A stretch of 64,000 bases of DNA, taken from Alphaproteobacteria bacterium. GTDB taxonomy: Bacteria; Pseudomonadota; Alphaproteobacteria; MPNO01. Below the pieces are notes generated by a model. The model did not search any database, was not told where the DNA came from, and saw only the letters and a program-made list of their open reading frames with translations. This document shows positions 6,217 to 56,853 of this stretch, piece after piece (position 1 is the first letter of the stretch; the number at the start of each line of letters is the position of its first letter). The position numbers were made by a program, and so were the translations under genes. The stretch lies in NCBI GenBank assembly GCA_965200535.1, contig CBDAUF010000002.1, forward strand, positions 403,995 to 467,994, given 5' to 3'.

Positions 6217-9155
6217 CTCGCATGGCGGCAGACCGGCAGCGCGTCTTCACCATCCCCGCCGGGACCTCCTTTCTCGACGCCCTGGCGCGCGGCCTGCTGA
6301 CGGCGGCCGGCGGCCGGGAGGCGGCGCGGACGACAGTGCTGCTGCCCAACCGGCGGGCCTGCCGCGAGCTTGTCGAGGCCGTGTTGCGGGTCAGCCCCGC
6401 GAAGACGCATTTGCTGCCGGCGATCCTGCCGATCGGAGATGTCGAGATCGACGAGGAGCTGGACGCCGGAGACACCGCCGCGCCGGCCGTGCTCGACCCG
6501 CCGCCGGCGATCCCGGCGCTTCGCCGCCAGCTCCTGCTCGCCGAGCTGGTCGGCGCCCGCGGGGAGTCGCCCGGCGGCGGCGATCCGGCGCGCGCGGCGG
6601 GTCTCGCCTTCGAACTCGCCCGCTTCCTCGATCAGGTGGAGACCGAGGGACTCGGTTTCGACCGGCTCGCCGGCCTGGCGCCGGAAACGCTCGCCGCGCA
6701 CTGGCAGATCACACTCGATTTCCTGCGCATCGTGACCGACCACTGGCCGGCGGTGCTCGCCGCGGAGGGCGCGGTCGGCCCCGCCGAGCGGCGCAATCGG
6801 CTGATCGAGGCCCGAATCGCGGCCTGGCGCGCCGCCCCGCCGGACGGGAAGGTCATCCTTGCCGGCTCGACCGGGAGCGTGCCCGCGACGCGCGCCCTGA
6901 TGGCTGCCGTCGCCGAACTGCCCGACGGCGCGGTGGTCCTCCCGGGGCTCGACCGGACGCTCGAACCGGCAGTCTGGGATGCGCTCGATGCGAGCCATCC
7001 GCAGTACGGCCTCAAGCTCGTCCTCGAAGCTCTCGGTGTCGAGCCCGCCGATGTCGCGCTCTGGCCGGGTGCGCCGCCGCCGCGGCGCGCGGCCGCCCGC
7101 GCCCGTCTGCTCGCCGCCGCCATGCGTCCCGCCGGGACCGAAGCGCCGCCGCTCGACGAGGCCGCGCAGGACGCTGCGCTCGACGGCGTTTGCCGCATCG
7201 ACTGCGCCGGCGCGCGGGAAGAGGCGGCGACCATCGCGCTCCTGTTGCGCGAGACGCTGGAGAGCGCGGGCAAGACGGCGGCGTTGGTTACGCCCGACCG
7301 TTCGCTCGCCCGACGGGTCGCTGCCGAACTGCTGCGCTGGGGAATCGAGATCGACGATTCGGGCGGCACGGATCTTGCCCGGACGCCGCCCGGCGCGTTT
7401 CTCCGGCTTCTCGCCCGGGCGCTCGCCGACCGCTGGGCGCCGGTCTCGCTGCTGTCGGTGCTCAAGCATCCGCTGGCCGCCGGCGGGATGGCGGTCGGGG
7501 ATTTCCGCGCCCGCGTGCGGGCGCTCGAACGCGGGGCGCTTCGCGGCCCGCGCCCGGCGCCGGGTGCCCGGGGTCTCCGGCTGGCGCTGGCCGGAAACCC
7601 GGGACTGGCCGCATGGGTGGACGCGCTCGCCGCCGCGGCGGCGCCGCTCGACAGTCTCGTTGCGGGCGGCGGGAAGGTCGGTGTCGCGGCCCTGGTCGAC
7701 GCCCATGTCGCCGCCGCCGAGCGGTTGGCGGCGAGCGCCGACGCTGGCGGCGCGGAGCGTTTGTGGGCCGGGGAAAACGGTGCCGCGGCGGCGTCCTTCA
7801 TGGATGAGCTCGCGGGTGCGGCGCGCGGTCTGCCGCCGGTCGAGGGGCGTGCCTGGCCCGACCTGCTCGATACCCTGATGCGCGGCCGTGCGGTCCGGCC
7901 GCGCTACGGTCGCCATCCGCGTCTTCGGATCCTGGGTGTGCTCGAAGCCCGTCTCCAGAGCGCCGACCGCCTGGTCCTGGGCGGGCTGAACGAGGGGGTC
8001 TGGCCGGCCCATCCGCCGACCGACCCGTGGATGGGCCGGCCGATGCGCGAGGCCTTCGGGTTGCCCCCGCACGAACGCCGGATCGGGCTCGCTGCGCACG
8101 ACTTCACCCAGTTCTTCTCCGCAGACGAGGTGTTCCTGACCCGCGCCGTACGGATGGCGGGCACGCCCACCGTCCCCTCGCGTTGGTTGATGCGCCTTGA
8201 CAATGCGCTGGGCGACCGCGTCGCCGAGTTCTCCCGGGGGGCGCGGCGATGGACCGGCTGGCAGGCGATGCTCGACCGGCCGGCCGAATACGAACAGATC
8301 CAGGCGCCGGCGCCAGCCCCGCCGGTCGAGGTGCGCCCGCGCCGGCTGTCCGTGACCCAGGTCGAAACCCTGATCCGCGACCCCTACGCGGTCTATGCCC
8401 GCCGCATCCTGGGTCTCGTCCCGCTCGATCCCTTGGACGCTGACCCGGGCGCGGCCGATCGCGGCCGGTTCGTCCACGGCGCGCTCGACCGGTTCCTGCA
8501 CGCCTTCCCGGACACTCTGCCGGCCGACGCCTATGACCGTTTGATCGCCTTCGGCCGCGACGAACTCCGCGAGATGAGCGAACGGCCCGGGGTGCGCGCC
8601 TTCTGGTGGCCCCGCTTCGAGCGGATCGCGCGCTGGTTCGTCGCCTGCGAGCGCAGCCGCCGGGCGAACATCGCGCAGACCCGGACTGAAATTACCGGCG
8701 AACTCCGGTTCGATGCGCCCGCCGGGCCGTTCACCCTGACCGCCAGGGCCGACCGCATCGATGCGATGGCCGACGGGAGCGTCGAGATCATCGACTACAA
8801 GACGGGGGCGACGCCGTCGCGCAGGGAGGTCCTGACGGGCGCGGCGCCGCAACTGCCTCTCGAAGCCGCGATCCTGGCGGCGGGCGGGTTTGCCGGCCTC
8901 TACGGCGCGCCCGACCCCCGGGCGGCCTACTGGAGACTCACCGGCGGCGATCCTGCCGGGGAAATCGTGGCGATCGACGCCAACCACGCGGCGGCGCGGG
9001 CCGGCCTCGAACGGTTGATCGCCCGTTTCGACGATGCCGAAGTCCCCTACGTGCCGCAGCCGCACGCCGGCCGCGCGCCGGGGTTCAACGACTACGAACA
9101 TCTGGAACGCCTCGCCGAATATGCCCCGGGACGAACCGCGGGGCGGCGACGATGA
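6213..9155 (+). CDS. addB: Double-strand break repair protein AddB (alphaproteobacterial type)
   Basis: About 980 aa with a C-terminal PD-(D/E)XK-like motif (VEIIDYKTG). ATGA overlaps link it to murU and to addA. ATG 6222 is an alternative start. Confidence 0.8.
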   Translation: MTRMAADRQRVFTIPAGTSFLDALARGLLTAAGGREAARTTVLLPNRRACRELVEAVLRVSPAKTHLLPAILPIGDVEIDEELDAGDTAAPAVLDPPPAIPALRRQLLLAELVGARGESPGGGDPARAAGLAFELARFLDQVETEGLGFDRLAGLAPETLAAHWQITLDFLRIVTDHWPAVLAAEGAVGPAERRNRLIEARIAAWRAAPPDGKVILAGSTGSVPATRALMAAVAELPDGAVVLPGLDRTLEPAVWDALDASHPQYGLKLVLEALGVEPADVALWPGAPPPRRAAARARLLAAAMRPAGTEAPPLDEAAQDAALDGVCRIDCAGAREEAATIALLLRETLESAGKTAALVTPDRSLARRVAAELLRWGIEIDDSGGTDLARTPPGAFLRLLARALADRWAPVSLLSVLKHPLAAGGMAVGDFRARVRALERGALRGPRPAPGARGLRLALAGNPGLAAWVDALAAAAAPLDSLVAGGGKVGVAALVDAHVAAAERLAASADAGGAERLWAGENGAAAASFMDELAGAARGLPPVEGRAWPDLLDTLMRGRAVRPRYGRHPRLRILGVLEARLQSADRLVLGGLNEGVWPAHPPTDPWMGRPMREAFGLPPHERRIGLAAHDFTQFFSADEVFLTRAVRMAGTPTVPSRWLMRLDNALGDRVAEFSRGARRWTGWQAMLDRPAEYEQIQAPAPAPPVEVRPRRLSVTQVETLIRDPYAVYARRILGLVPLDPLDADPGAADRGRFVHGALDRFLHAFPDTLPADAYDRLIAFGRDELREMSERPGVRAFWWPRFERIARWFVACERSRRANIAQTRTEITGELRFDAPAGPFTLTARADRIDAMADGSVEIIDYKTGATPSRREVLTGAAPQLPLEAAILAAGGFAGLYGAPDPRAAYWRLTGGDPAGEIVAIDANHAAARAGLERLIARFDDAEVPYVPQPHAGRAPGFNDYEHLERLAEYAPGRTAGRRR

Positions 9156-50772: not shown

Positions 50773-51094
50773 CCGGACCGCCCGCCCGCCGCCGGACGCT
50801 GCGCCGGCGCCGATACCGCTATATCCTGACCATATAGATTAGCTGGACACCATATGTTGATGATAAGAAACGGCTTTGCCGATTCGCTCCTTTCCTGCCA
50901 GCGTTATCGCAGACGATGTCGTCGAAACCTGCTGGCCGGAGACGGGAGGGGACCGCGATGTATATTTCAAGCGATTCTGCAGCGAATGCGCTGTGTCACG
51001 GGTCGATAGCCGGGGCCGTCCGCGGGGCGGCGGGCAACCCGGGCGAAGGAATTTTCCCGCAGGGGCTGACAAGCCGGGCCGGGCTTCGCTCCGG

Positions 51095-51100
51095 TATAAT
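51095..51100 (+). promoter_or_regulatory. Isolated perfect TATAAT hexamer (possible -10 element for the autotransporter gene)
   Basis: TATAAT lies 3 nt upstream of the pentanucleotide tract. There is no good -35 at 16-18 nt (the CTGACA at 51066-51071 is 23 nt away). Confidence 0.25.
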
Positions 51101-51102
51101 TA

Positions 51103-51180
51103 AGCCAAGCCGAGCCAAGCCGAGCCGAGCCGAGCCGAGCCGAGCCGAGCCGAGCCGAGCCGAGCCGAGCCGAGCCGAGC
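51103..51180. repeat. Pentanucleotide microsatellite: AGCCA-AGCCG-AGCCA-(AGCCG)x12, then a partial AGC
   Basis: Read directly. There are 12 perfect units at 51118-51177 and 15 units in total from 51103. The tract ends 27 nt before ATG 51205. Confidence 0.97.
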
Positions 51181-51204
51181 GGCCAGAAGTGCGGGCGCGG
51201 CATT

Positions 51205-54200
51205 ATGCGCCGGAACCTTTCGACGCAGCACCGATCCCGCCGACCCTGGAGCCGGGTCTTTCCCGGGCTCTCCGCATTCCTGCTCGGGCTCGCCGCGCTC
51301 GCGGCCGGGCCGGCCCACGCCCAGACCTATCTGAATACGACGATGACCGTCGGGACGCTGAGCGGTTTTCTCGGCTTCAATAAGGGCGAAAGTGCAGGCT
51401 CCCTCGGAAAGGACTTCTTCGTACATGACGGCGGGACCTACGACATAACCCATCTGGGCCACACCCCGACCCACGCCGAGATCAGCACGACGCCCCCGCT
51501 TCCCCTGGGCGTCCTCAACAGTTTCCACGTGACCATCGATTCCACCGCGTACCAGGGGGGATGGACCCAGGACGCCAACGCGAACGTGCACCGGATTGCC
51601 AAGGGTTCTCTCGATCTGACGAGCGGCGACACAGACATCGCCGTGAAGATCGTCCAGGTGCCCGAGCAGGTCACCGGCCTGTCGCTGACGACGAACAACG
51701 GCGAAATCACGGCGAGCTGGACGGCGGCGGGCAACGACCCTTCGGACATTACCGGCTACGAACTGGAATTCCGCGAGTCGCCGAGCGGCTCGTGGATGAA
51801 ATCCAGCTTCAGCCACACCAACACGACCCACACCATCGAGAACCGCACCAACGGCACCAAATATGACATCCGCGTGCGGGCCGTGAACGGGCCGGCCTAC
51901 GGCGCATGGTCGGCCACCGCGAAGGCGACGCCGACGGAGGAGCCCAACAGCCCGCCGGTCCTCGCCCTCCCGGATGCGGGGAGCATTGCCGAGAACAGCA
52001 CGGGCACGGTCCTGACAGTCACGGCCAGCGATTCGGACAGCGATGACAACTCTAACTTCCGCTATGAGCTGGATCAGGATCATACCGACAATGGGTGCTT
52101 CGATATGATTGGCGCGACAGTGCACGTTGACAGCGGCTATTGTACCCTCGATTACGAGCGCCTTGATCCGTTCGGAGGGGGCGCTTTCGATGAGGACGGG
52201 AGTCCCTTTTACAATGTGATGGTCACGGTCAAGAGCGGCACGGGCGACCGCGAGTTGACGGCGTCGGGGTTTGTCAAGATCACGATAACCGACGTCCGCG
52301 AGCCGCCCGGCGAGGTGGGACAGCCGACGGTCACGACGGCGGGCAGCGGCGAACTGAAGGTCACCTGGTCGAAGCCGTCGTACAATCTCGGACCGGCGGT
52401 CAGCGGCTATGACGTGCGGTTCCGGGAGTACGGCGCTGCCAATAAGGACAAATGGCACTATCACGCCCATGAGGGCACGGAGACGAAGGCCGTGCTCACG
52501 CACCTGAAGAACGACACCCAGTATTGGGTCGAGGTGCGGGCGAAGAACGACGAAGGCGACGGCTTCTGGTCCCAGTCGCAAAACGGCACGCCGAAGGCAG
52601 TGCCGGACAAGGTCAGCCATCTGGTGCTGGTCGCGGGCGACCGCGAAATCACGGCGAGCTGGGTCGAGCCGTACGACAACATCCCCGAAGAACCTCCCAC
52701 GCCGCCGGCGGACAACATCGACGGCTACAAGGTGGAATACCGCGAGTCCTCGGCGACCTCTTGGACCGACGCCGGCCACAGCGGCACCGCAACCACGCTC
52801 ACCAGGTCCGGCCTGAACAACGGCACGGCCTATGACTTCCGCGTGCGGGCCGTGAATGCCAATGGCGACGGCCCCTGGTCGGATATCGCGACGGCGACGC
52901 CGGCCACGGAGAGCCCGGTGGTTGTCTCGTCGACCTGGGTGTCGGTGAAGGAGAACAACGGGGGCAAGGCGCGCTACGGCGTGTCGCTCGCCGGCACCGA
53001 AGTGCCGTCGAGCACGGTAACGGTGAAGCTGTCCGCCTCCGGCGATGTCGATGCGGTGGAGATCGAGCCTTCGAGCCAGACCCTGATTTTCACCGTCGGC
53101 CCCAACGGGAACTGGAACGCGGTCCAGGTGGTGACGATCGCCGGGGTGGATGACACCACGCACCAACCGGACCACCGCGAAGTCACGATTTCGCACACGG
53201 CGACTTCCGGGGATTCGAACTTCAACAACAAGACCGCCTCGGTCGATGTGCGCATCTATGACGACGACCCGGACCCGAACAATCCGACGCCGGCGGCACC
53301 GACGAATCTGGAGATATCCCATGCCGGCGGCTCGGCCACGACGGCCACGCTGACCTGGGATCACACATTCAACACTCCGGAACAGCCGACGCTGAAGGAC
53401 GGCTATCACCGCTATGTCATCTGGCGCTGCACAGGGGCCGAGTGCGATCCCAAGTCCAGCTATTACGACCGGGTCGGCGGCCTGGCCAACAAGAAGAACG
53501 GGGAGGGCACCGAGTGGATTCCGACCTATACGAAGGAATTCAACGACGGCACGAAGCCCAGAAAGATGCCTGTCCCGCTGGAGCAGGGGGTGACGCATCG
53601 CTATGCGGTGACGGCGGAATACGGCAAGGGAGAGGTCTATAGCTCGGACCCCTCGGGTGTCGCCACACTCTCCGTCGGCACCGCGCAGACCGCGCCGCCG
53701 CCGCCGAAACCGAAGCCCGGCAACGGCTTTGTGCGCCTCGACTGGCAGTCGGCGGACGAGGATGCGGGCGGCAACGGCGGCAGCAATGGGCAGTCCATCG
53801 GCTCCCTGCGCTCCATCGGTTCGCTGATCGAGCGCGGCCTGCGGATGGTGCGGGGCCTGAGCGCGGAGTCCGAGGAGCCGGCGGCGCCGGAATACAAGGT
53901 GAGCTACACCGAGGAAGGCGCGGACTGGAGCGAGGGCTACACCGAGACGGTGCCCGACACCTCGACCGTGATCGAGGCGCTCGAGAACGGCGTGAGCTAC
54001 GCCTTCCGGGTGCGTTCGGTGACGAACGGCGAGGCCGGCCCGTGGTCGGACACGGTGACGGCGACGCCCAAGGCCCCGGACAATGCACCGGTCGAGGGGC
54101 CGAGCTACGAGGGCGTCGAGTCTCCCGCGCTGAGCTTCGTCGCCGGCGAGGCGGTCGCACTGGTGACGCTGCCTGCGGCAAGCGGCGGCAGCGGGGCGCT

Positions 54201-56853
54201 GACCTACTCGGTGGCGCCGGCGCTCGCCAACGGCCTCGCCTTCGACGCGGCAACGCGCCAGATCTCCGGCACGCCGGCTGCGGCCGCGGAGGCGGCAAGC
54301 CACACGCTGACCGCCGCCGATGAGGACGGCAACACGGCCGAGCTTGCCTTCACCGTCGCGGTGACCGAGGCCGCCGACACCGTGGCCCCGACGGCAGCGC
54401 TGTCCGTGGCGGACGGTGTCGAGACCCCGGTTACCGGCGCCTTCGGCATCGCGGTGACCTTCAGCGAGCCGGTGACGGGCTTTGCGCTGGCCGACCTGAC
54501 GGTTGCCAACGGCGCGGTCTCGGACCTCGCAGGCTCGGATGCGTCGTGGACGGCGACCGTGACCCCGGACGAGGGGTTCTCCGGCGACCTGACGGTGGAC
54601 CTCGCGGCGGGCACGGTCGAGGACGCGGCCGGCAATGGCAACGAGGCGGCACCGACGCTGACGGTGGCGGCGGAGTCTCCGGTGACCAGGCCGACCAACG
54701 TGGCGAACGCCACGACGGCGGCGACGGCGTGGAAGTCCATGGATGTGGCCTTCGATGCGCCGCCCGCGCGGACGGGCTGGGTTGCATCGAACACCCAGAT
54801 CCGCGTGCTCGGGATGAAGAAGGGCGCGAAGCGGACGGGGTGGAGGAGCCTGAAGCGGGTCTATGTGAAGAACGGCCGGGCCGAGGGCACGACGCGGGCG
54901 TTTCTCGCCATCGGGCGGGTCTACGAGGTGGAGCTGCGCTATTGCGGCGCGAAGATCTCGAAGGCGACCTGCAGCGAGCCTTCGGAGATGGTCTACGGCG
55001 CCTCGCCGGCGTCTGCGCCGAAGGGCGCGAAGGCGGGTCCGACCGACCCGGCGTCGCAGACGGCGCTGAAGCTCGCGTGGCGCATCGGCAATATCGGCGG
55101 CAAGAAGAACCTGCAGGCGGCCTACGAGATCGGCTACGCCAAGGACACGACCGCCAGCGCGCCGGAGACGCTGCTGTCTTCGGTCCCCGCCTTCGGCGTG
55201 AAGGAAGCGGAGGTGGACGGTCTCGAGCCGGGGACCGCCTACCGCCTGTTCGTGCGCAGCAAGATCGACTGGCAGGGTGCGCGGCTGTTCGCCTCGAACT
55301 GGACGTCGGCGACGGCATCGACGGCGTCGGGTGCGGAGAGCCTTGCGGGCGAGGCGCTGAAGCGCGCGCTCGCGGGCCAGGCGCGCAGCCTGCTTGAGGA
55401 TGCATCGTCGGTGATCGGCCGGCGGATGTCGTCGGGCGGCGCGGGCAGCGACGTGCTGTCGGCGTTTGCCGGTCTGCTCGGGGGCCAGGGACCGGGCGGC
55501 TGTGCGCTCGAGGACAGCATCGAGGACTGCGTGACCGGCGGGGAGAGTAAGTCCCTCGCGCAGACGCACGGCGGCTTCGGCGGCGCGGGCCACGGCTTCG
55601 GCGGCGCGGGCAGCGGCTTCGAGGGCCACGGCTTCGGGGGCGGCGGCGGTACGGACCGTTCGTACAGCCTCTCGGACCTGCGCGACCTGATGAAGAGCCA
55701 GGGCTTTGCGATCTCGCTCAACCGCCCGCTGCCGACCATGGGCTTCGCCCAGGAGGAGGCGCCGGCCGATGACGCCGGGATGCAGCTGACCCTGTGGGGC
55801 CAGGGCGCCGGGGGCGGTTCGGACGGTGCGATGTTCTGGGGCATGGACGCCTCGATGGGCGAGCGCTGGATGACGGGGATCGCCTTTGCCGAGAGCGGCG
55901 CCATCGCCTCGTCGGGTCTCAAGCACGGGGACGCGCGCGTCTCCGGGTTCGCGGAGAGCGAGGTGACGGCGGTCTACCCCTACGCGCGGGGCCGCTTTGC
56001 CTCGGGTCTGGAACTCTGGAGCCTGGCCGGCTGGGGCAAGGGCCGCGTGGACAGCAAGTGGACGGGGTTTGCCCCGGGATCGGGTCCGGTGGAGATCGAT
56101 CTCGCCGGCGGTCTCGGGTTCAGCCTCGGCATGGCGGGTGCGGAACAGGTTCTGTACGAGGCCGACGGTCTCAGCATCTCCGCGGTCGGCGATGCCGGCT
56201 GGTCGCGGCTCGCGGTCTCGGGCGGCACGGCGGACGGTGTGTCGGCGACGGTCACGCGGACGCGGGTTGCGGTGTCTGGCCGGTATGCGGAAGGCGGTCT
56301 GGCGTCGTCGCTCCGCATCGGCGGGCGGGTGGACGGCGGCGACGGCGAGACGGCGTCTGGCGCCGAGGTGTCGGGCGAGGTCCGCCACGCGTGGGGCCGC
56401 TGGGAAGTGGGCGCGCAAGGCCGCTGGTACACGGCGGAGACGACGGGCGCCGGGTTCGGCGAGCGGGGCGTGCGTGCCGCGGTGGGCCTGCGTGCGCGCG
56501 GCGACGGGACGGGTCTCGCGTTCGCACTGTCTCCAGGCTGGGGCGCGACAGGCGCGCAGCAGGGCGAGAGCGGCCTGCTGGGCACGCTGGACGGCGATGC
56601 CGATGAGCACACGCCTGCGGCGCATCTCGACGGGCGCATCTCGTGGGGCATCCGGGTCCCGGGTCTGATCGCGCACCGCGAGATGCTGCGCCCGTACGCG
56701 GAGTTCTGGCTCACGGACGGCGCCGCGCACCGGCTGCGCACGGGCGTCGCGCTGGAGGGTCCGGTGCGGATCAACCTCGCGCTGGAGCACCGGAAGGACG
56801 CCGCCGGCCCCGCCGAACACGGCGCCGTCCTGCGCCTCGACAGCCGGTTCTGA
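51205..56853 (+). CDS. Large surface protein: type Va autotransporter with an FN3/cadherin-like/Calx-beta-like/Ig-like passenger
   Basis: Signal peptide ...AFLLGLAALAAGPAHA|QT. Several FN3-like modules (e.g. GYELEFRE...YDIRVRAVN, GYDVRFRE...YWVEVRAKN, GYKVEYRE...YDFRVRAVN). A Gly-rich linker (GFGGAGHGFGGAGSGF). A C-terminal region of roughly 280 aa with alternating beta-strand pattern, ending in LRLDSRF. Confidence 0.8.
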   Translation: MRRNLSTQHRSRRPWSRVFPGLSAFLLGLAALAAGPAHAQTYLNTTMTVGTLSGFLGFNKGESAGSLGKDFFVHDGGTYDITHLGHTPTHAEISTTPPLPLGVLNSFHVTIDSTAYQGGWTQDANANVHRIAKGSLDLTSGDTDIAVKIVQVPEQVTGLSLTTNNGEITASWTAAGNDPSDITGYELEFRESPSGSWMKSSFSHTNTTHTIENRTNGTKYDIRVRAVNGPAYGAWSATAKATPTEEPNSPPVLALPDAGSIAENSTGTVLTVTASDSDSDDNSNFRYELDQDHTDNGCFDMIGATVHVDSGYCTLDYERLDPFGGGAFDEDGSPFYNVMVTVKSGTGDRELTASGFVKITITDVREPPGEVGQPTVTTAGSGELKVTWSKPSYNLGPAVSGYDVRFREYGAANKDKWHYHAHEGTETKAVLTHLKNDTQYWVEVRAKNDEGDGFWSQSQNGTPKAVPDKVSHLVLVAGDREITASWVEPYDNIPEEPPTPPADNIDGYKVEYRESSATSWTDAGHSGTATTLTRSGLNNGTAYDFRVRAVNANGDGPWSDIATATPATESPVVVSSTWVSVKENNGGKARYGVSLAGTEVPSSTVTVKLSASGDVDAVEIEPSSQTLIFTVGPNGNWNAVQVVTIAGVDDTTHQPDHREVTISHTATSGDSNFNNKTASVDVRIYDDDPDPNNPTPAAPTNLEISHAGGSATTATLTWDHTFNTPEQPTLKDGYHRYVIWRCTGAECDPKSSYYDRVGGLANKKNGEGTEWIPTYTKEFNDGTKPRKMPVPLEQGVTHRYAVTAEYGKGEVYSSDPSGVATLSVGTAQTAPPPPKPKPGNGFVRLDWQSADEDAGGNGGSNGQSIGSLRSIGSLIERGLRMVRGLSAESEEPAAPEYKVSYTEEGADWSEGYTETVPDTSTVIEALENGVSYAFRVRSVTNGEAGPWSDTVTATPKAPDNAPVEGPSYEGVESPALSFVAGEAVALVTLPAASGGSGALTYSVAPALANGLAFDAATRQISGTPAAAAEAASHTLTAADEDGNTAELAFTVAVTEAADTVAPTAALSVADGVETPVTGAFGIAVTFSEPVTGFALADLTVANGAVSDLAGSDASWTATVTPDEGFSGDLTVDLAAGTVEDAAGNGNEAAPTLTVAAESPVTRPTNVANATTAATAWKSMDVAFDAPPARTGWVASNTQIRVLGMKKGAKRTGWRSLKRVYVKNGRAEGTTRAFLAIGRVYEVELRYCGAKISKATCSEPSEMVYGASPASAPKGAKAGPTDPASQTALKLAWRIGNIGGKKNLQAAYEIGYAKDTTASAPETLLSSVPAFGVKEAEVDGLEPGTAYRLFVRSKIDWQGARLFASNWTSATASTASGAESLAGEALKRALAGQARSLLEDASSVIGRRMSSGGAGSDVLSAFAGLLGGQGPGGCALEDSIEDCVTGGESKSLAQTHGGFGGAGHGFGGAGSGFEGHGFGGGGGTDRSYSLSDLRDLMKSQGFAISLNRPLPTMGFAQEEAPADDAGMQLTLWGQGAGGGSDGAMFWGMDASMGERWMTGIAFAESGAIASSGLKHGDARVSGFAESEVTAVYPYARGRFASGLELWSLAGWGKGRVDSKWTGFAPGSGPVEIDLAGGLGFSLGMAGAEQVLYEADGLSISAVGDAGWSRLAVSGGTADGVSATVTRTRVAVSGRYAEGGLASSLRIGGRVDGGDGETASGAEVSGEVRHAWGRWEVGAQGRWYTAETTGAGFGERGVRAAVGLRARGDGTGLAFALSPGWGATGAQQGESGLLGTLDGDADEHTPAAHLDGRISWGIRVPGLIAHREMLRPYAEFWLTDGAAHRLRTGVALEGPVRINLALEHRKDAAGPAEHGAVLRLDSRF

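What the first reader, a model, noticed from the sequence alone, without database searches (positions are those of the whole stretch)
51095..51207. Fifteen-unit AGCCG pentanucleotide tract between a TATAAT box and the start of a giant autotransporter: candidate phase-variation switch
Seen in sequence: 51103-51177 is AGCCA-AGCCG-AGCCA followed by 12 perfect AGCCG units. The tract starts 3 nt after a perfect TATAAT and ends 27 nt before the ATG (51205) of a 1,882-aa signal-peptide-bearing surface protein.

- I found no other comparable microsatellite in the 64 kb.
- The unit length is not a multiple of 3.
- All three frames are open through the tract.
- Track ORF 50916..51383 reads the tract as (PSRAE)n and overlaps the adhesin start.
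- In the adhesin frame there is no stop between 51100 and 51205. A +1 or -2 unit change would therefore fuse that upstream ORF in frame to the adhesin.

Established knowledge: slipped-strand mispairing at 4-7-nt repeats in promoters, leaders or signal-peptide regions of surface-protein genes is the classical contingency-locus mechanism, for example the CTCTT repeats in Neisseria opa genes.

Inference: expression of this adhesin may be stochastically switched. As far as I know, this is hardly documented for high-GC alphaproteobacteria.
Basis: partly seen in the sequence, partly recalled or inferred. Interest (0 to 1): 0.7.

Follow-up and report, generated by a model that had tools for sequence, protein, structure and literature searches.

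The report
Slippery repeat switch before adhesin gene
A run of fifteen AGCCG units sits just ahead of a giant surface-protein gene, and relatives carry the same run at the same spot with 2, 6, 9, 12 or at least 15 units, so it is very probably a mutational switch for that protein, here in uncultured sponge-associated bacteria where such switches have not been described.

Summary
Positions 51103-51180 are AGCCA-AGCCG-AGCCA plus 12 perfect AGCCG units. This is the only strong microsatellite in the 64 kb. It lies between TATAAT (51095-51100) and the ATG (51205) of a 1,882-aa secreted repeat protein.

Comparative data support a contingency locus:
- Homologous adhesin genes in related uncultured Alphaproteobacteria carry the same tract at the same place, with 6, 9, 12 and at least 15 units.
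- One homologue has poly-C17 there instead.
- Two homologues have no repeat.
- A paralogue in the same species keeps only about 2 units.

The tract lies inside a leader reading frame that opens at a conserved Shine-Dalgarno-ATG (50958). In the paralogue this ATG is in frame with the signal peptide. Several relatives have no other usable start. In every repeat-bearing locus, exactly one of three phases fuses the leader to the adhesin.

My best reading (about 0.5) is a translational frame switch of the Opa/lav type. The 15-unit allele is out of frame; 13 or 16 units would fuse. This copy also has its own ATG, so the switch may act as high/low rather than on/off.

A promoter or 5'-UTR mechanism is the main rival. 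Switching within a population could not be tested. I class it as a new member of a known kind, in a new ecological setting.

The parts
50944..50951 (+). Shine-Dalgarno-like GGGAGGGG, ending 6 nt before the leader ATG
   Evidence: Read from the sequence. A GGAGG-type motif 6-9 nt before an ATG or GTG is conserved at the equivalent place in L001/L002, L005, L006, L007, L045, L128 and L129-131.
50958..51383 (+). Leader ORF. It encodes 141 aa in the 15-unit allele (MYISSDSAANALCHG...QGLTSR...GIIK(PSRAE)n...), reads through CTGACA, TATAAT and the tract, and then overlaps the adhesin start in the -1 register relative to the adhesin frame (leader codons begin one base before adhesin codons).
   Evidence: The same ATG and first 18 codons open the paralogue protein P0140, where they are in frame with the signal peptide.
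51008..51012 (+). Isolated AGCCG unit inside the leader. It is the left end-point of the deletion seen in the paralogue.
   Evidence: Alignment A2. The paralogue reads GATAGCCGAGCCGAGCGGCC, which joins this unit to the last two units of the tract.
51066..51071 (+). CTGACA, a -35-like hexamer. It also supplies the Leu-Thr codons of the conserved GLTxR motif of the leader.
   Evidence: TTGACA or TTGACT is conserved in L001/L002, L006, L007, L045 and L128. Its spacing to the -10-like box is 20 or 23 nt. The codons are rare in this genome.
51095..51100 (+). TATAAT, a -10-like hexamer read as Ile-Ile in the leader frame
   Evidence: It is present in L001/L002 and L045 and absent in L006. No sigma-70 site is called here.
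51103..51180 (+). Pentanucleotide simple sequence repeat: AGCCA, AGCCG, AGCCA, (AGCCG)12, then AGC
   Evidence: Homologous tracts have 6 units (L001), 9 (L002), 12 (L006), at least 15 (L045) and 2.6 (L129-131). L005 has poly-C17 at this position.
51205..51321 (+). The adhesin's own ATG and its 39-aa signal peptide (n-region with Arg residues, hydrophobic core, AHA|Q cleavage motif)
   Evidence: GC3 rises to 0.88 from this ATG onward, against 0.65 in the leader. The start context GCGCGGCAT(T)ATG resembles that of the repeat-free homologue L128.
51205..56853 (+). 1,882-aa surface protein. It has an N-terminal family-specific domain, 4 fn3 domains, cadherin-like, He_PIG and Big_12 domains, and a C-terminal beta-barrel ending in ...LRLDSRF.
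   Evidence: Pfam scan. C-terminal family hits at 45-62% identity in related MAGs. AF2 model and Foldseek search.

Best explanation
**Proposed mechanism.** The AGCCG tract is a slipped-strand-mispairing hotspot kept in the 5' leader of a family of giant adhesin genes. It works mainly at the level of the reading frame.

1. Ribosomes start at a conserved Shine-Dalgarno-ATG (window 50958) and read through the tract.
2. Each unit is 5 nt, so gain or loss of one unit moves these ribosomes among three frames.
3. One frame continues into the signal peptide and the adhesin. The other two end in short peptides.

The assembled 15-unit allele of this window is in a non-fusing phase. Alleles with 16 or 13 units would make an adhesin with a long presequence from the strong upstream start.

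This copy also has its own SD-less ATG at 51205. The likely output is therefore a high/low switch, or a long-presequence/short-presequence switch, rather than a clean on/off switch.

**Shown:**
- the tract and its uniqueness in the window;
- length differences between homologues and between paralogues;
- the conserved upstream start;
- the frame arithmetic;
- one paralogue in which the leader ATG is the only start for the signal peptide.

**Inferred:**
- that slippage occurs at a useful rate in living populations;
- that the leader is translated;
- that the fused protein is exported;
- that expression differs between phases.
For: **1. The repeat is real and labile.**
- 15.6 copies, TRF score 142, none in shuffles.
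- The same motif sits at the same position in L001 (6 units) and L002 (9 units). These two paralogues are about 18 kb apart in one 3.43-Mb MAG, and their flanks are 98% identical.
- L006 has 12 units. L045, from a Sarcotragus foetidus sponge metagenome, has at least 15.
- The paralogue of the window's own species has 2.6 units.

**2. A different repeat type occupies the equivalent place.** Poly-C17 lies in the homologous leader of L005. The leaders of L045 and L005 share MxM(T/P)(A/G)G and ADERRA, with 4 synonymous and 0 non-synonymous differences.

**3. The SD-ATG is conserved** in all eight leaders examined.

**4. Several loci have no usable start codon for the signal peptide downstream of the repeat.**
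- L005 has none.
- L006 has only an ATG inside the hydrophobic core.
- In L001/L002 the nearest ATG is 1 nt out of frame, and the called TTG sits in the hydrophobic core.

**5. The paralogue P0140 uses the leader ATG.** It starts with the same MYISSDSAANAL as window 50958 and runs in frame into ...QHRSRRPWSRVFPGLSAFLLGLAALAAGPANA|QTYLDTTMTVG, with no internal ATG.

**6. Exactly one phase in three fuses leader and adhesin at each repeat-bearing locus**. A TGA closes each of the other two frames within about 25 nt after the tract in L001/L002 and L006.

**7. The spacing between the GLT and GI(I/M/L) motifs** (the TTGACA and TATAAT hexamers) is 20, 20, 20, 23 and 23 nt in the five loci where a -10-like box can be identified. 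All differences are in frame, as expected for coding sequence.

**8. The gene family looks like a contingency family:** several paralogues per genome, a conserved 5' leader/signal peptide and 3' barrel around divergent passengers, pseudogenes, IS insertions and a tRNA-adjacent duplication.
Against: - **No repeat-bearing locus is in the fusing phase.** All five are out of phase as assembled. In the two repeat-free homologues (L007, L128) the leader ATG is also out of frame with the signal peptide. L128 clearly uses its own ATG 113 nt after the leader stop.
- **This window has its own ATG** in a context like L128's. The coding signature (GC3 0.88) begins there, while the leader is flat in all frames (GC1/2/3 0.62/0.62/0.65). 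The linker after the tract in L001 is equally flat.
- **The fused presequences would be long**: about 120 aa in the window and about 115-120 aa in L001. The only observed fused case (P0140) and the L005 prediction are both about 70 aa.
- **Openness of the adhesin frame between tract and signal peptide is not significant** (joint shuffle probability 0.13).
- **The in-frame paralogue is itself frameshifted** after 180 codons, so its phase could be chance.
- **TTGACA and TATAAT use very rare codons**. This suggests DNA-level selection on them.
- **No within-population length data** could be obtained.
Confidence: 0.5

Rival explanations
1. **Promoter-proximal or 5'-UTR repeat, like H. influenzae HMW1/2 or Moraxella UspA2.** In this reading, TTGACA...TATAAT is a real, possibly activator-dependent promoter. 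Transcription starts in the first units of the tract. The adhesin is translated from its own ATG (51205). Unit number then changes the length or structure of the untranslated leader, and with it transcript level, stability or translation.
For: - TATAAT lies 2-5 nt before the tract in the window, L001/L002 and L045. TTGAC(A/T) is conserved in six leaders.
- These hexamers use codons that are rare here: TTG is 1.8% of Leu codons, ACA 3.3% of Thr, ATA 2.8% and ATT 10% of Ile. The leader also lacks the GC3 signature of genes.
- The window and L128 have their own ATG with a shared context.
- Unrelated loci show canonical promoters placed directly before (AGCCG)n. A gut-metagenome family has TTGACA-N16/17-TAnnnT with conserved hexamers and variable spacer sequence. 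L078 has TTGACT-N16-TATGGT.
- Repeats in the 5' UTR of large adhesin genes are an established mechanism (HMW1A: PMC12721329).
Against: - The spacer is 23 nt in the window and 20 nt in L001/L002, L045 and L128. L006 has no clear -10 box. All are outside the 16-18 nt range, and no site is called.
- TATAAT is missing in L006.
- In L005, L006 and L001/L002 no usable start codon lies downstream.
- The paralogue lost both hexamers yet kept an open frame from the leader ATG.
- A leader RNA starting at the tract folds no better than shuffles (z = 0.03), and the longer leader folds worse (z = 1.48). An HMW-type long hairpin is therefore not supported. There is no Rfam match.
Confidence: 0.25
2. **Microsatellite with no regulatory role.** The tract is a mutational by-product of a slippage-prone GC-rich leader. 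It varies in length, but the adhesin is expressed from ATG 51205 regardless.
For: - The gene has its own start and signal peptide.
- (AGCCG)5 or longer tracts are common in metagenomes in many contexts.
- Every assembled allele is in a non-fusing phase.
- Two homologues (L007, L128) do without any repeat.
Against: - Perfect tracts persist at one position across homologues whose conserved C-terminal domain is only 45-62% identical. A different repeat type occupies the same position in L005. Neither is expected without selection.
- There is no other comparable repeat in 64 kb.
- The association with a multi-copy surface-protein family, and the placement of stop codons after the tract, match known contingency loci.
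Confidence: 0.15
3. **The leader ORF is a separate regulatory upstream ORF or small protein.** Its C-terminal part contains a (PSRAE)n pentapeptide repeat. Selection keeps the unit number divisible by three, and the adhesin is controlled indirectly, for example by ribosomes reading across its start.
For: - All four complete tracts have 6, 9, 12 or 15 units.
- In L128 the leader is a stand-alone 43-codon ORF that ends 113 nt before the adhesin ATG.
- In the window, leader ribosomes run across ATG 51205 in every non-fusing phase.
Against: - The peptide tail after the tract is not conserved between the window and the MAG loci.
- With n divisible by 3, the leader in L001 and L006 does not stop at the conserved TCTGA that L128 uses.
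- Four values are few (chance 1/27 to 1/81).
- The paralogue fuses the leader to the adhesin.
Confidence: 0.1

Closest known systems
Neisseria opa genes (CTCTT pentanucleotide repeats in the signal-peptide coding region)
   Same: Both have a pentanucleotide unit lying between the initiation codon and the mature outer-membrane or surface protein. In both, one of three phases gives full-length protein. Both are multi-copy families with conserved ends and variable middles. (The Opa facts rest on my own knowledge; the window facts come.)
   Different: - Here the tract encodes a hydrophilic PSRAE repeat far upstream of the hydrophobic core, not the core itself.
- The fused presequence would be 70-120 aa long.
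- This copy has a second, downstream ATG.
- The protein is a 1,882-aa fn3/cadherin repeat protein with a C-terminal barrel, not a small 8-stranded barrel.
- The organism is an uncultured, probably sponge-associated alphaproteobacterium.
Haemophilus influenzae lav and other autotransporter genes with tetranucleotide repeats
   Same: In both, an autotransporter-type surface-protein gene carries a repeat whose unit is not a multiple of 3. In lav the unit number differs between strains, from 14 to 30 CAAG units (PMC2651432).
   Different: The unit is 5 nt and GC-rich. Variation is documented here only between paralogues and homologues, not between strains. Membership of the barrel in the autotransporter family is unproven.
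H. influenzae HMW1A/HMW2A heptanucleotide repeats in the 5' UTR
   Same: Both have a repeat just upstream of a very large adhesin gene, downstream of promoter-like hexamers. In HMW1A, expression falls as the ATCTTTC unit number rises (PMC12721329).
   Different: The HMW repeat forms a long RNase III-cleaved hairpin with a G-rich arm. The window's leader folds no better than shuffled sequence. The HMW repeat is not inside a translated leader with a conserved SD-ATG.
Homopolymeric-tract frame switches in 5' coding regions (for example Neisseria pilC, Campylobacter and Helicobacter surface genes)
   Same: Homologue L005 has poly-C17 between the conserved leader ATG and the signal peptide, and no other start codon.
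   Different: That is the homologue, not the window. The homopolymer length in a long-read assembly is uncertain.

Membership tests
SSR-driven phase-variable (contingency) locus | Long, perfect tandem repeat of a short unit, far beyond chance | tested here: met
   12 perfect and 3 near-perfect AGCCG units. TRF score 142. 0 matches in 100 shuffles.
SSR-driven phase-variable (contingency) locus | Unit length not divisible by 3, placed so that a length change alters a reading frame or a promoter | tested here: met
   The 5-nt unit lies inside ORF 50958-51383. Simulated alleles with 13 or 16 units fuse that ORF to the adhesin.
SSR-driven phase-variable (contingency) locus | Tract length differs between otherwise similar sequences (strains, paralogues) | tested here: met
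   6 versus 9 units between paralogues with 98% identical flanks. 12, 15 and at least 15 units in other homologues. About 2 units in the same-species paralogue.
SSR-driven phase-variable (contingency) locus | Length heterogeneity within one population, with reversible high-frequency switching of expression | not testable with these tools
SSR-driven phase-variable (contingency) locus | The controlled gene encodes a surface-exposed or host-interaction product | tested here: met
   Signal peptide; fn3, cadherin, He_PIG and Big_12 repeats; predicted C-terminal outer-membrane barrel.
Opa-type translational switch (repeat between start codon and mature protein) | The repeat lies downstream of the functional initiation codon | tested here: inconclusive
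   A conserved SD-ATG lies 145 nt upstream, and the paralogue P0140 uses it. The leader, however, lacks the GC3 signature of coding sequence.
Opa-type translational switch (repeat between start codon and mature protein) | No alternative start between the repeat and the signal peptide, so out-of-frame alleles are null | tested here: not met
   In the window, ATG 51205 lies 27 nt after the tract and opens a normal signal peptide. The feature is met in homologues L005, L006 and L001/L002.
Promoter-spacer SSR (for example Bordetella fim, Neisseria porA/opc, H. influenzae hif) | The repeat lies between the -35 and -10 elements, so its length sets promoter spacing | tested here: not met
   The tract begins after TATAAT. 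No sigma-70 site is called. The CTGACA-TATAAT spacer is 23 nt.
5'-UTR SSR with structured leader (HMW1A type) | The repeat is transcribed in the 5' UTR and forms a stable long hairpin with a complementary arm | tested here: not met
   Leader folds have z-scores of 0.03 and 1.48 against shuffles. There is no Rfam family match. The transcription start itself is not testable here.
Classical (type Va) autotransporter | C-terminal beta-domain matching the autotransporter family (PF03797; 12-stranded barrel) | tested here: inconclusive
   - No Pfam hit for the window's C-terminus even at E = 10.
- 1 of 17 family members hits PF03797, at 5.8e-5.
- The AF2 model is an all-beta barrel with mean pLDDT 66.5.
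- The best Foldseek matches are TonB-dependent and Omp85 barrels. EspP and BrkA rank lower. All TM-scores are below 0.5.
Classical (type Va) autotransporter | N-terminal Sec signal peptide followed by a passenger, all in one polypeptide | tested here: met
   A single 1,882-aa ORF with a signal peptide and repeat-domain passenger.

The most novel reading that the evidence does not exclude
The repeat may sit in a dual-purpose leader. It would be inside a translated leader ORF and, at the same time, at the start site of an internal promoter built from rare codons (TTGACA...TATAAT). Unit number would then select among three outputs:
- adhesin made from the strong upstream start with a long presequence;
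- adhesin made from its own weak ATG;
- interference by leader ribosomes reading across that ATG.

This would be a three-state gearbox rather than an on/off switch. It would be used by sponge symbionts to vary eukaryote-like adhesins. The unexplained fact that all complete tracts have unit numbers divisible by three would then reflect selection for one particular state.
Probability: 0.12. Interest if true: 0.75.

Novelty: new member of a known kind. Interest (0 to 1): 0.58.

Why it matters
Repeat-driven phase variation is textbook biology for a handful of host-restricted pathogens such as Neisseria, Haemophilus, Campylobacter, Helicobacter and Mycoplasma. It is essentially undescribed for uncultured, high-GC, mutualistic or commensal marine symbionts. 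Searches of the held literature found no report of AGCCG-mediated switching, and none of phase variation in sponge symbionts.

The family studied here carries fn3 and cadherin 'eukaryote-like' repeats. One member comes from a Sarcotragus foetidus sponge metagenome. Other fn3 hits are named for sponge-associated taxa.

If the switch is real, these symbionts would stochastically vary large host-interaction proteins. That bears on how sponge symbionts avoid phagocytosis or immune recognition. It also gives a simple sequence marker, tract length, that can be read directly from long-read metagenomes.

There is a practical point as well. Gene callers miss the true 5' ends of these genes, placing starts inside the signal-peptide core or far downstream.

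Tried and rejected
- **Strain comparison by exact-protein look-up.** Look-ups of the adhesin, the upstream oxygenase and the leader ORFs all returned 'not on record' or 'not in the collection'. No same-locus alleles from other samples could be obtained.
- **Scans for the exact promoter-plus-tract pattern.** The genome collection returned only the one related MAG. The metagenome collection returned nothing.
- **A general (AGCCG)5 scan of metagenomes.** It returned more than 120 loci, mostly unrelated. Only L045 belongs to the family.
- **An nhmmer profile of the leader core.** It found no further copy in the window or in any fetched locus.
- **A canonical sigma-70 promoter at TATAAT.** Rejected: no site was called and the spacer is 23 nt.
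- **A promoter-spacing mechanism.** Rejected because the tract is downstream of the -10 box.
- **An HMW-type RNA hairpin or a known RNA family.** Rejected.
- **The open adhesin frame between tract and signal peptide as statistical proof of translation.** Rejected as not significant.
- **GC3 periodicity as proof that the leader is coding.** It argues the other way, and I list it as evidence against.
- **Programmed ribosomal frameshifting or transcriptional slippage as a way to join the frames.** I considered both and saw no slippery site, so I did not pursue them.
- **Pfam membership of the C-terminal barrel.** Not obtained.
Full report
**1. The observation**

The sequence is as described:
- TATAAT at 51095-51100, followed by TA.
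- AGCCA, AGCCG, AGCCA and then twelve perfect AGCCG units at 51103-51177, followed by AGC.
- The ATG of a 1,882-codon ORF at 51205.

Tandem Repeats Finder lists the tract as period 5, 15.6 copies, score 142. The next best array in the window scores 86 and has a 21-nt period. A 20-nt probe of four units matches 12 times, all in the tract, and never in 100 dinucleotide-preserving shuffles.

The ORF begins with a normal signal peptide, MRRNLSTQHRSRRPWSRVFPGLSAFLLGLAALAAGPAHA|QT. It contains four fn3 domains plus cadherin-like, He_PIG and Big_12 domains.

The upstream ORF 50916-51383 reads the tract as PSRAE repeats and overlaps the adhesin start. The last stop in the adhesin frame is the TAA inside TATAAT. 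Simulated alleles with 16 or 13 units join the upstream ORF to the adhesin.

**2. Relatives**

The adhesin's C-terminal 500 aa defines a family in large contigs of uncultured Alphaproteobacteria. Nearly all of these contigs come from one long-read metagenome, ERZ25068043. I fetched the 5' regions of six homologous loci.

| Locus | Source | Repeat at the equivalent position |
|---|---|---|
| L001 | 3.43-Mb MAG | (AGCCG)6 |
| L002 | same MAG, about 18 kb away, flanks 98% identical | (AGCCG)9 |
| L006 | another contig; gene interrupted by IS elements | (AGCCG)12 |
| L045 | Sarcotragus foetidus sponge metagenome | (AGCCG)15 or more, cut by the contig end |
| L005 | another contig | poly-C17 |
| L007, L128 | another MAG | none |

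L001 and L002 both carry ...GGGGTTGACA-20 nt-TATAAT-GA- immediately before their tracts. L045 has the same leader architecture.

A search with an in-silico fused leader found P0140, a protein of the window's own genome encoded elsewhere. Its DNA was recovered from three independent run assemblies, L129-131. Compared with the window, it is 91% identical in the upstream region and the first part of the leader, and 96% identical in the signal peptide. It lacks everything between an isolated AGCCG unit (window 51008-51012) and the last two units of the tract.

So the repeat has been kept at one position over considerable divergence. It has changed length repeatedly, has been replaced by another repeat type, and has been lost. 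That is the comparative footprint of a contingency locus.

**3. Anatomy of the leader**

All eight leaders have a GGAGG-type Shine-Dalgarno motif 6-9 nt before an ATG (GTG in L007). In the window these are GGGAGGGG at 50944-51 and ATG at 50958.

The ORF that opens there reads through a conserved G-L-T-x-R motif (DNA GGGGYTGACA) and, in most loci, a G/A-I-I/M/L motif (DNA TATAAT or similar). It then enters the repeat.

Three observations suggest the leader is translated:
- The spacing between the two hexamers is 20, 20, 20, 23 and 23 nt in the five loci where a -10-like box can be identified. All differences are in frame.
- The leaders of L045 and L005 share ADERRA, with four synonymous and no non-synonymous differences.
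- In L001/L002 and L006, a TGA closes each of the two non-adhesin frames within about 25 nt after the tract, while the adhesin frame stays open to the signal peptide.

Downstream of the repeat, several loci lack a usable start for the signal peptide:
- L005 has no start codon at all.
- L006 has only an ATG inside the hydrophobic core.
- In L001/L002 the nearest ATG is 1 nt out of frame, and the gene caller's TTG sits in the hydrophobic core.

In the paralogue L129-131 the leader ATG is in frame with the signal peptide, there is no internal ATG, and the presequence is 70 aa. In every repeat-bearing locus, exactly one phase in three fuses leader and adhesin.

**4. What does not fit**

- None of the five repeat-bearing loci is in the fusing phase as assembled.
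- The two repeat-free loci are also out of frame. L128 clearly uses its own ATG, 113 nt after the leader's stop.
- The window has such an ATG of its own, in a similar context (GCGCGGCAT(T)ATG). The coding signature starts there: GC3 is 0.88 from that point, against a flat 0.62/0.62/0.65 in the leader. The linker after the tract in L001 is equally flat.
- The open adhesin frame between tract and signal peptide is not statistically remarkable (joint probability 0.13).
- The hexamers use codons that are very rare in this genome: TTG 1.8%, ACA 3.3%, ATA 2.8%, ATT 10%. This points to selection on the DNA sequence itself.
- All four complete tracts have unit numbers divisible by three. I cannot explain this.
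- The in-frame paralogue is frameshifted after 180 codons, so it may be decaying.

**5. Mechanism**

I rate the translational frame switch as the best single explanation, at about 0.5. It alone accounts for the conserved start, the missing downstream starts, the interchangeability of a 5-nt and a 1-nt repeat, the stop codons after the tract, and the paralogue.

For this window the 15-unit allele is out of phase. One unit more, or two fewer, would give a 1,966- or 1,961-aa preprotein. Because ATG 51205 exists, the effect is probably quantitative, or a switch between two presequences.

The rivals, in order:
- **Promoter or 5'-UTR model (about 0.25).** The hexamers and the rare codons favour it. 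So do unrelated loci where canonical promoters abut (AGCCG)n. Against it stand the 19-23 nt spacers, the failed promoter scan, the loss of TATAAT in L006, and leader RNA that folds no better than shuffles.
- **A functionless microsatellite (about 0.15).**
- **A separate regulatory leader peptide (about 0.1).**

**6. Comparison with known systems**

It works most like Neisseria opa (a pentanucleotide between the start codon and the mature protein) and like the repeat-bearing autotransporter genes of H. influenzae such as lav (PMC2651432). It is not a promoter-spacer repeat. It lacks the hairpin of the HMW1A 5'-UTR repeat (PMC12721329).

The 'autotransporter' label is only partly earned:
- The window's C-terminus has no Pfam hit.
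- One of 17 relatives touches PF03797.
- The AF2 model is a beta-barrel of moderate confidence.
- Its best structural matches are larger barrels, with TM-scores below 0.5.

**7. Novelty and verdict**

The mechanism class is well known. The setting is new: a high-GC, uncultured, probably sponge-associated alphaproteobacterium, a GC-rich AGCCG unit, and giant fn3/cadherin adhesins. I found nothing comparable in the held literature.

I classify it as a new member of a known kind, with interest 0.58. The decisive test is a read-level length census at 51.0-51.3 kb. It is feasible with existing data but not with the tools available here.

Noticed in passing
L014, L016, L019, L023, L030, L043, L044, L046, L047, L049, L050, L061, L063, L068, L082, L097, L099, L107, L108, L123 (metagenome contigs, mostly human gut; for example L049 4938-4987): An unrelated, recurrent (AGCCG)n locus with n = 5-15 that varies between contigs. 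One strand carries a canonical promoter, with TTGACA and TAnnnT conserved and a 16-17 nt spacer of variable sequence, ending 7 nt before the tract. The other strand carries a strong AAGGAGGA-N7-ATG followed by about 10 codons (MANGNATIIV...) that read into the tract. All three phases occur and give ORFs of 25-80 aa.
   Followed up: partly
L005 2982-2998: A homologous adhesin gene has poly-C17 between the conserved leader ATG (2912) and a signal peptide that has no start codon of its own. C15 or C18 would fuse them. The same gene is split into two ORFs at 8001-8004.
   Followed up: partly
L129-L131 (for example L129 431-973); proteins P0140 and P0121: - The window's own species has at least one further adhesin copy, with a near-identical leader and signal peptide (P0140).
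- P0140's N-terminal domain is only about 46% identical to the window's at the DNA level.
- P0121 is 98% identical to the window's C-terminus and may belong to the same copy. If so, the family is a mosaic with conserved ends and a variable middle.
- The P0140 copy is frameshifted after 180 codons.
- A poly-T run upstream of its leader differs between samples (T6 in L129, T7 in L130).
   Followed up: partly
window 51103-51177; L001 3730-3759; L002 3724-3768; L006 2870-2929: All four complete AGCCG tracts have unit numbers divisible by three (15, 6, 9, 12). This is not the fusing phase at any of these loci. Chance would give this in 1/27 to 1/81 of cases. Unexplained.
   Followed up: partly
L002 3231-3320; L001 3291-3352: The duplicated leader of the two MAG paralogues begins exactly at the 3' end of a tRNA-Ser(CGA) gene in L002. 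L001 has an inverted repeat (TTTGCCACAATTT... / ...AAATTGTGGCAAA) at the same junction. L006 is flanked by IS elements and three integrase genes. Together these suggest that the adhesin cassettes move or recombine.
   Followed up: no
L078 1300-1438 (Ga0196963_10072371): A high-GC contig ends in (AGCCG)19 or more. The tract is preceded by a canonical TTGACT-N16-TATGGT promoter and 7 nt, with no leader ORF reading into it. The gene context is unknown because the contig stops in the repeat.
   Followed up: no
window 55693-56850 (adhesin residues about 1497-1882): The C-terminal domain, ending ...LRLDSRF, has no Pfam family. It recurs in at least 18 proteins of uncultured bacteria, both as the end of giant proteins and in proteins of about 620 aa. 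It is predicted to form a beta-barrel with more strands than a classical 12-stranded autotransporter domain.
   Followed up: partly
window 51100-56820, minus strand: A 1,906-codon open frame lies antisense to the adhesin gene. It is typical of high-GC sequence and almost certainly not a gene.
   Followed up: no
L001 4001, L002 4001, L007 10001, L005 3277: Gene callers placed the starts of these adhesin genes inside the hydrophobic core of the signal peptide, or far downstream of it. Database proteins of this family therefore lack their true N-termini.
   Followed up: yes
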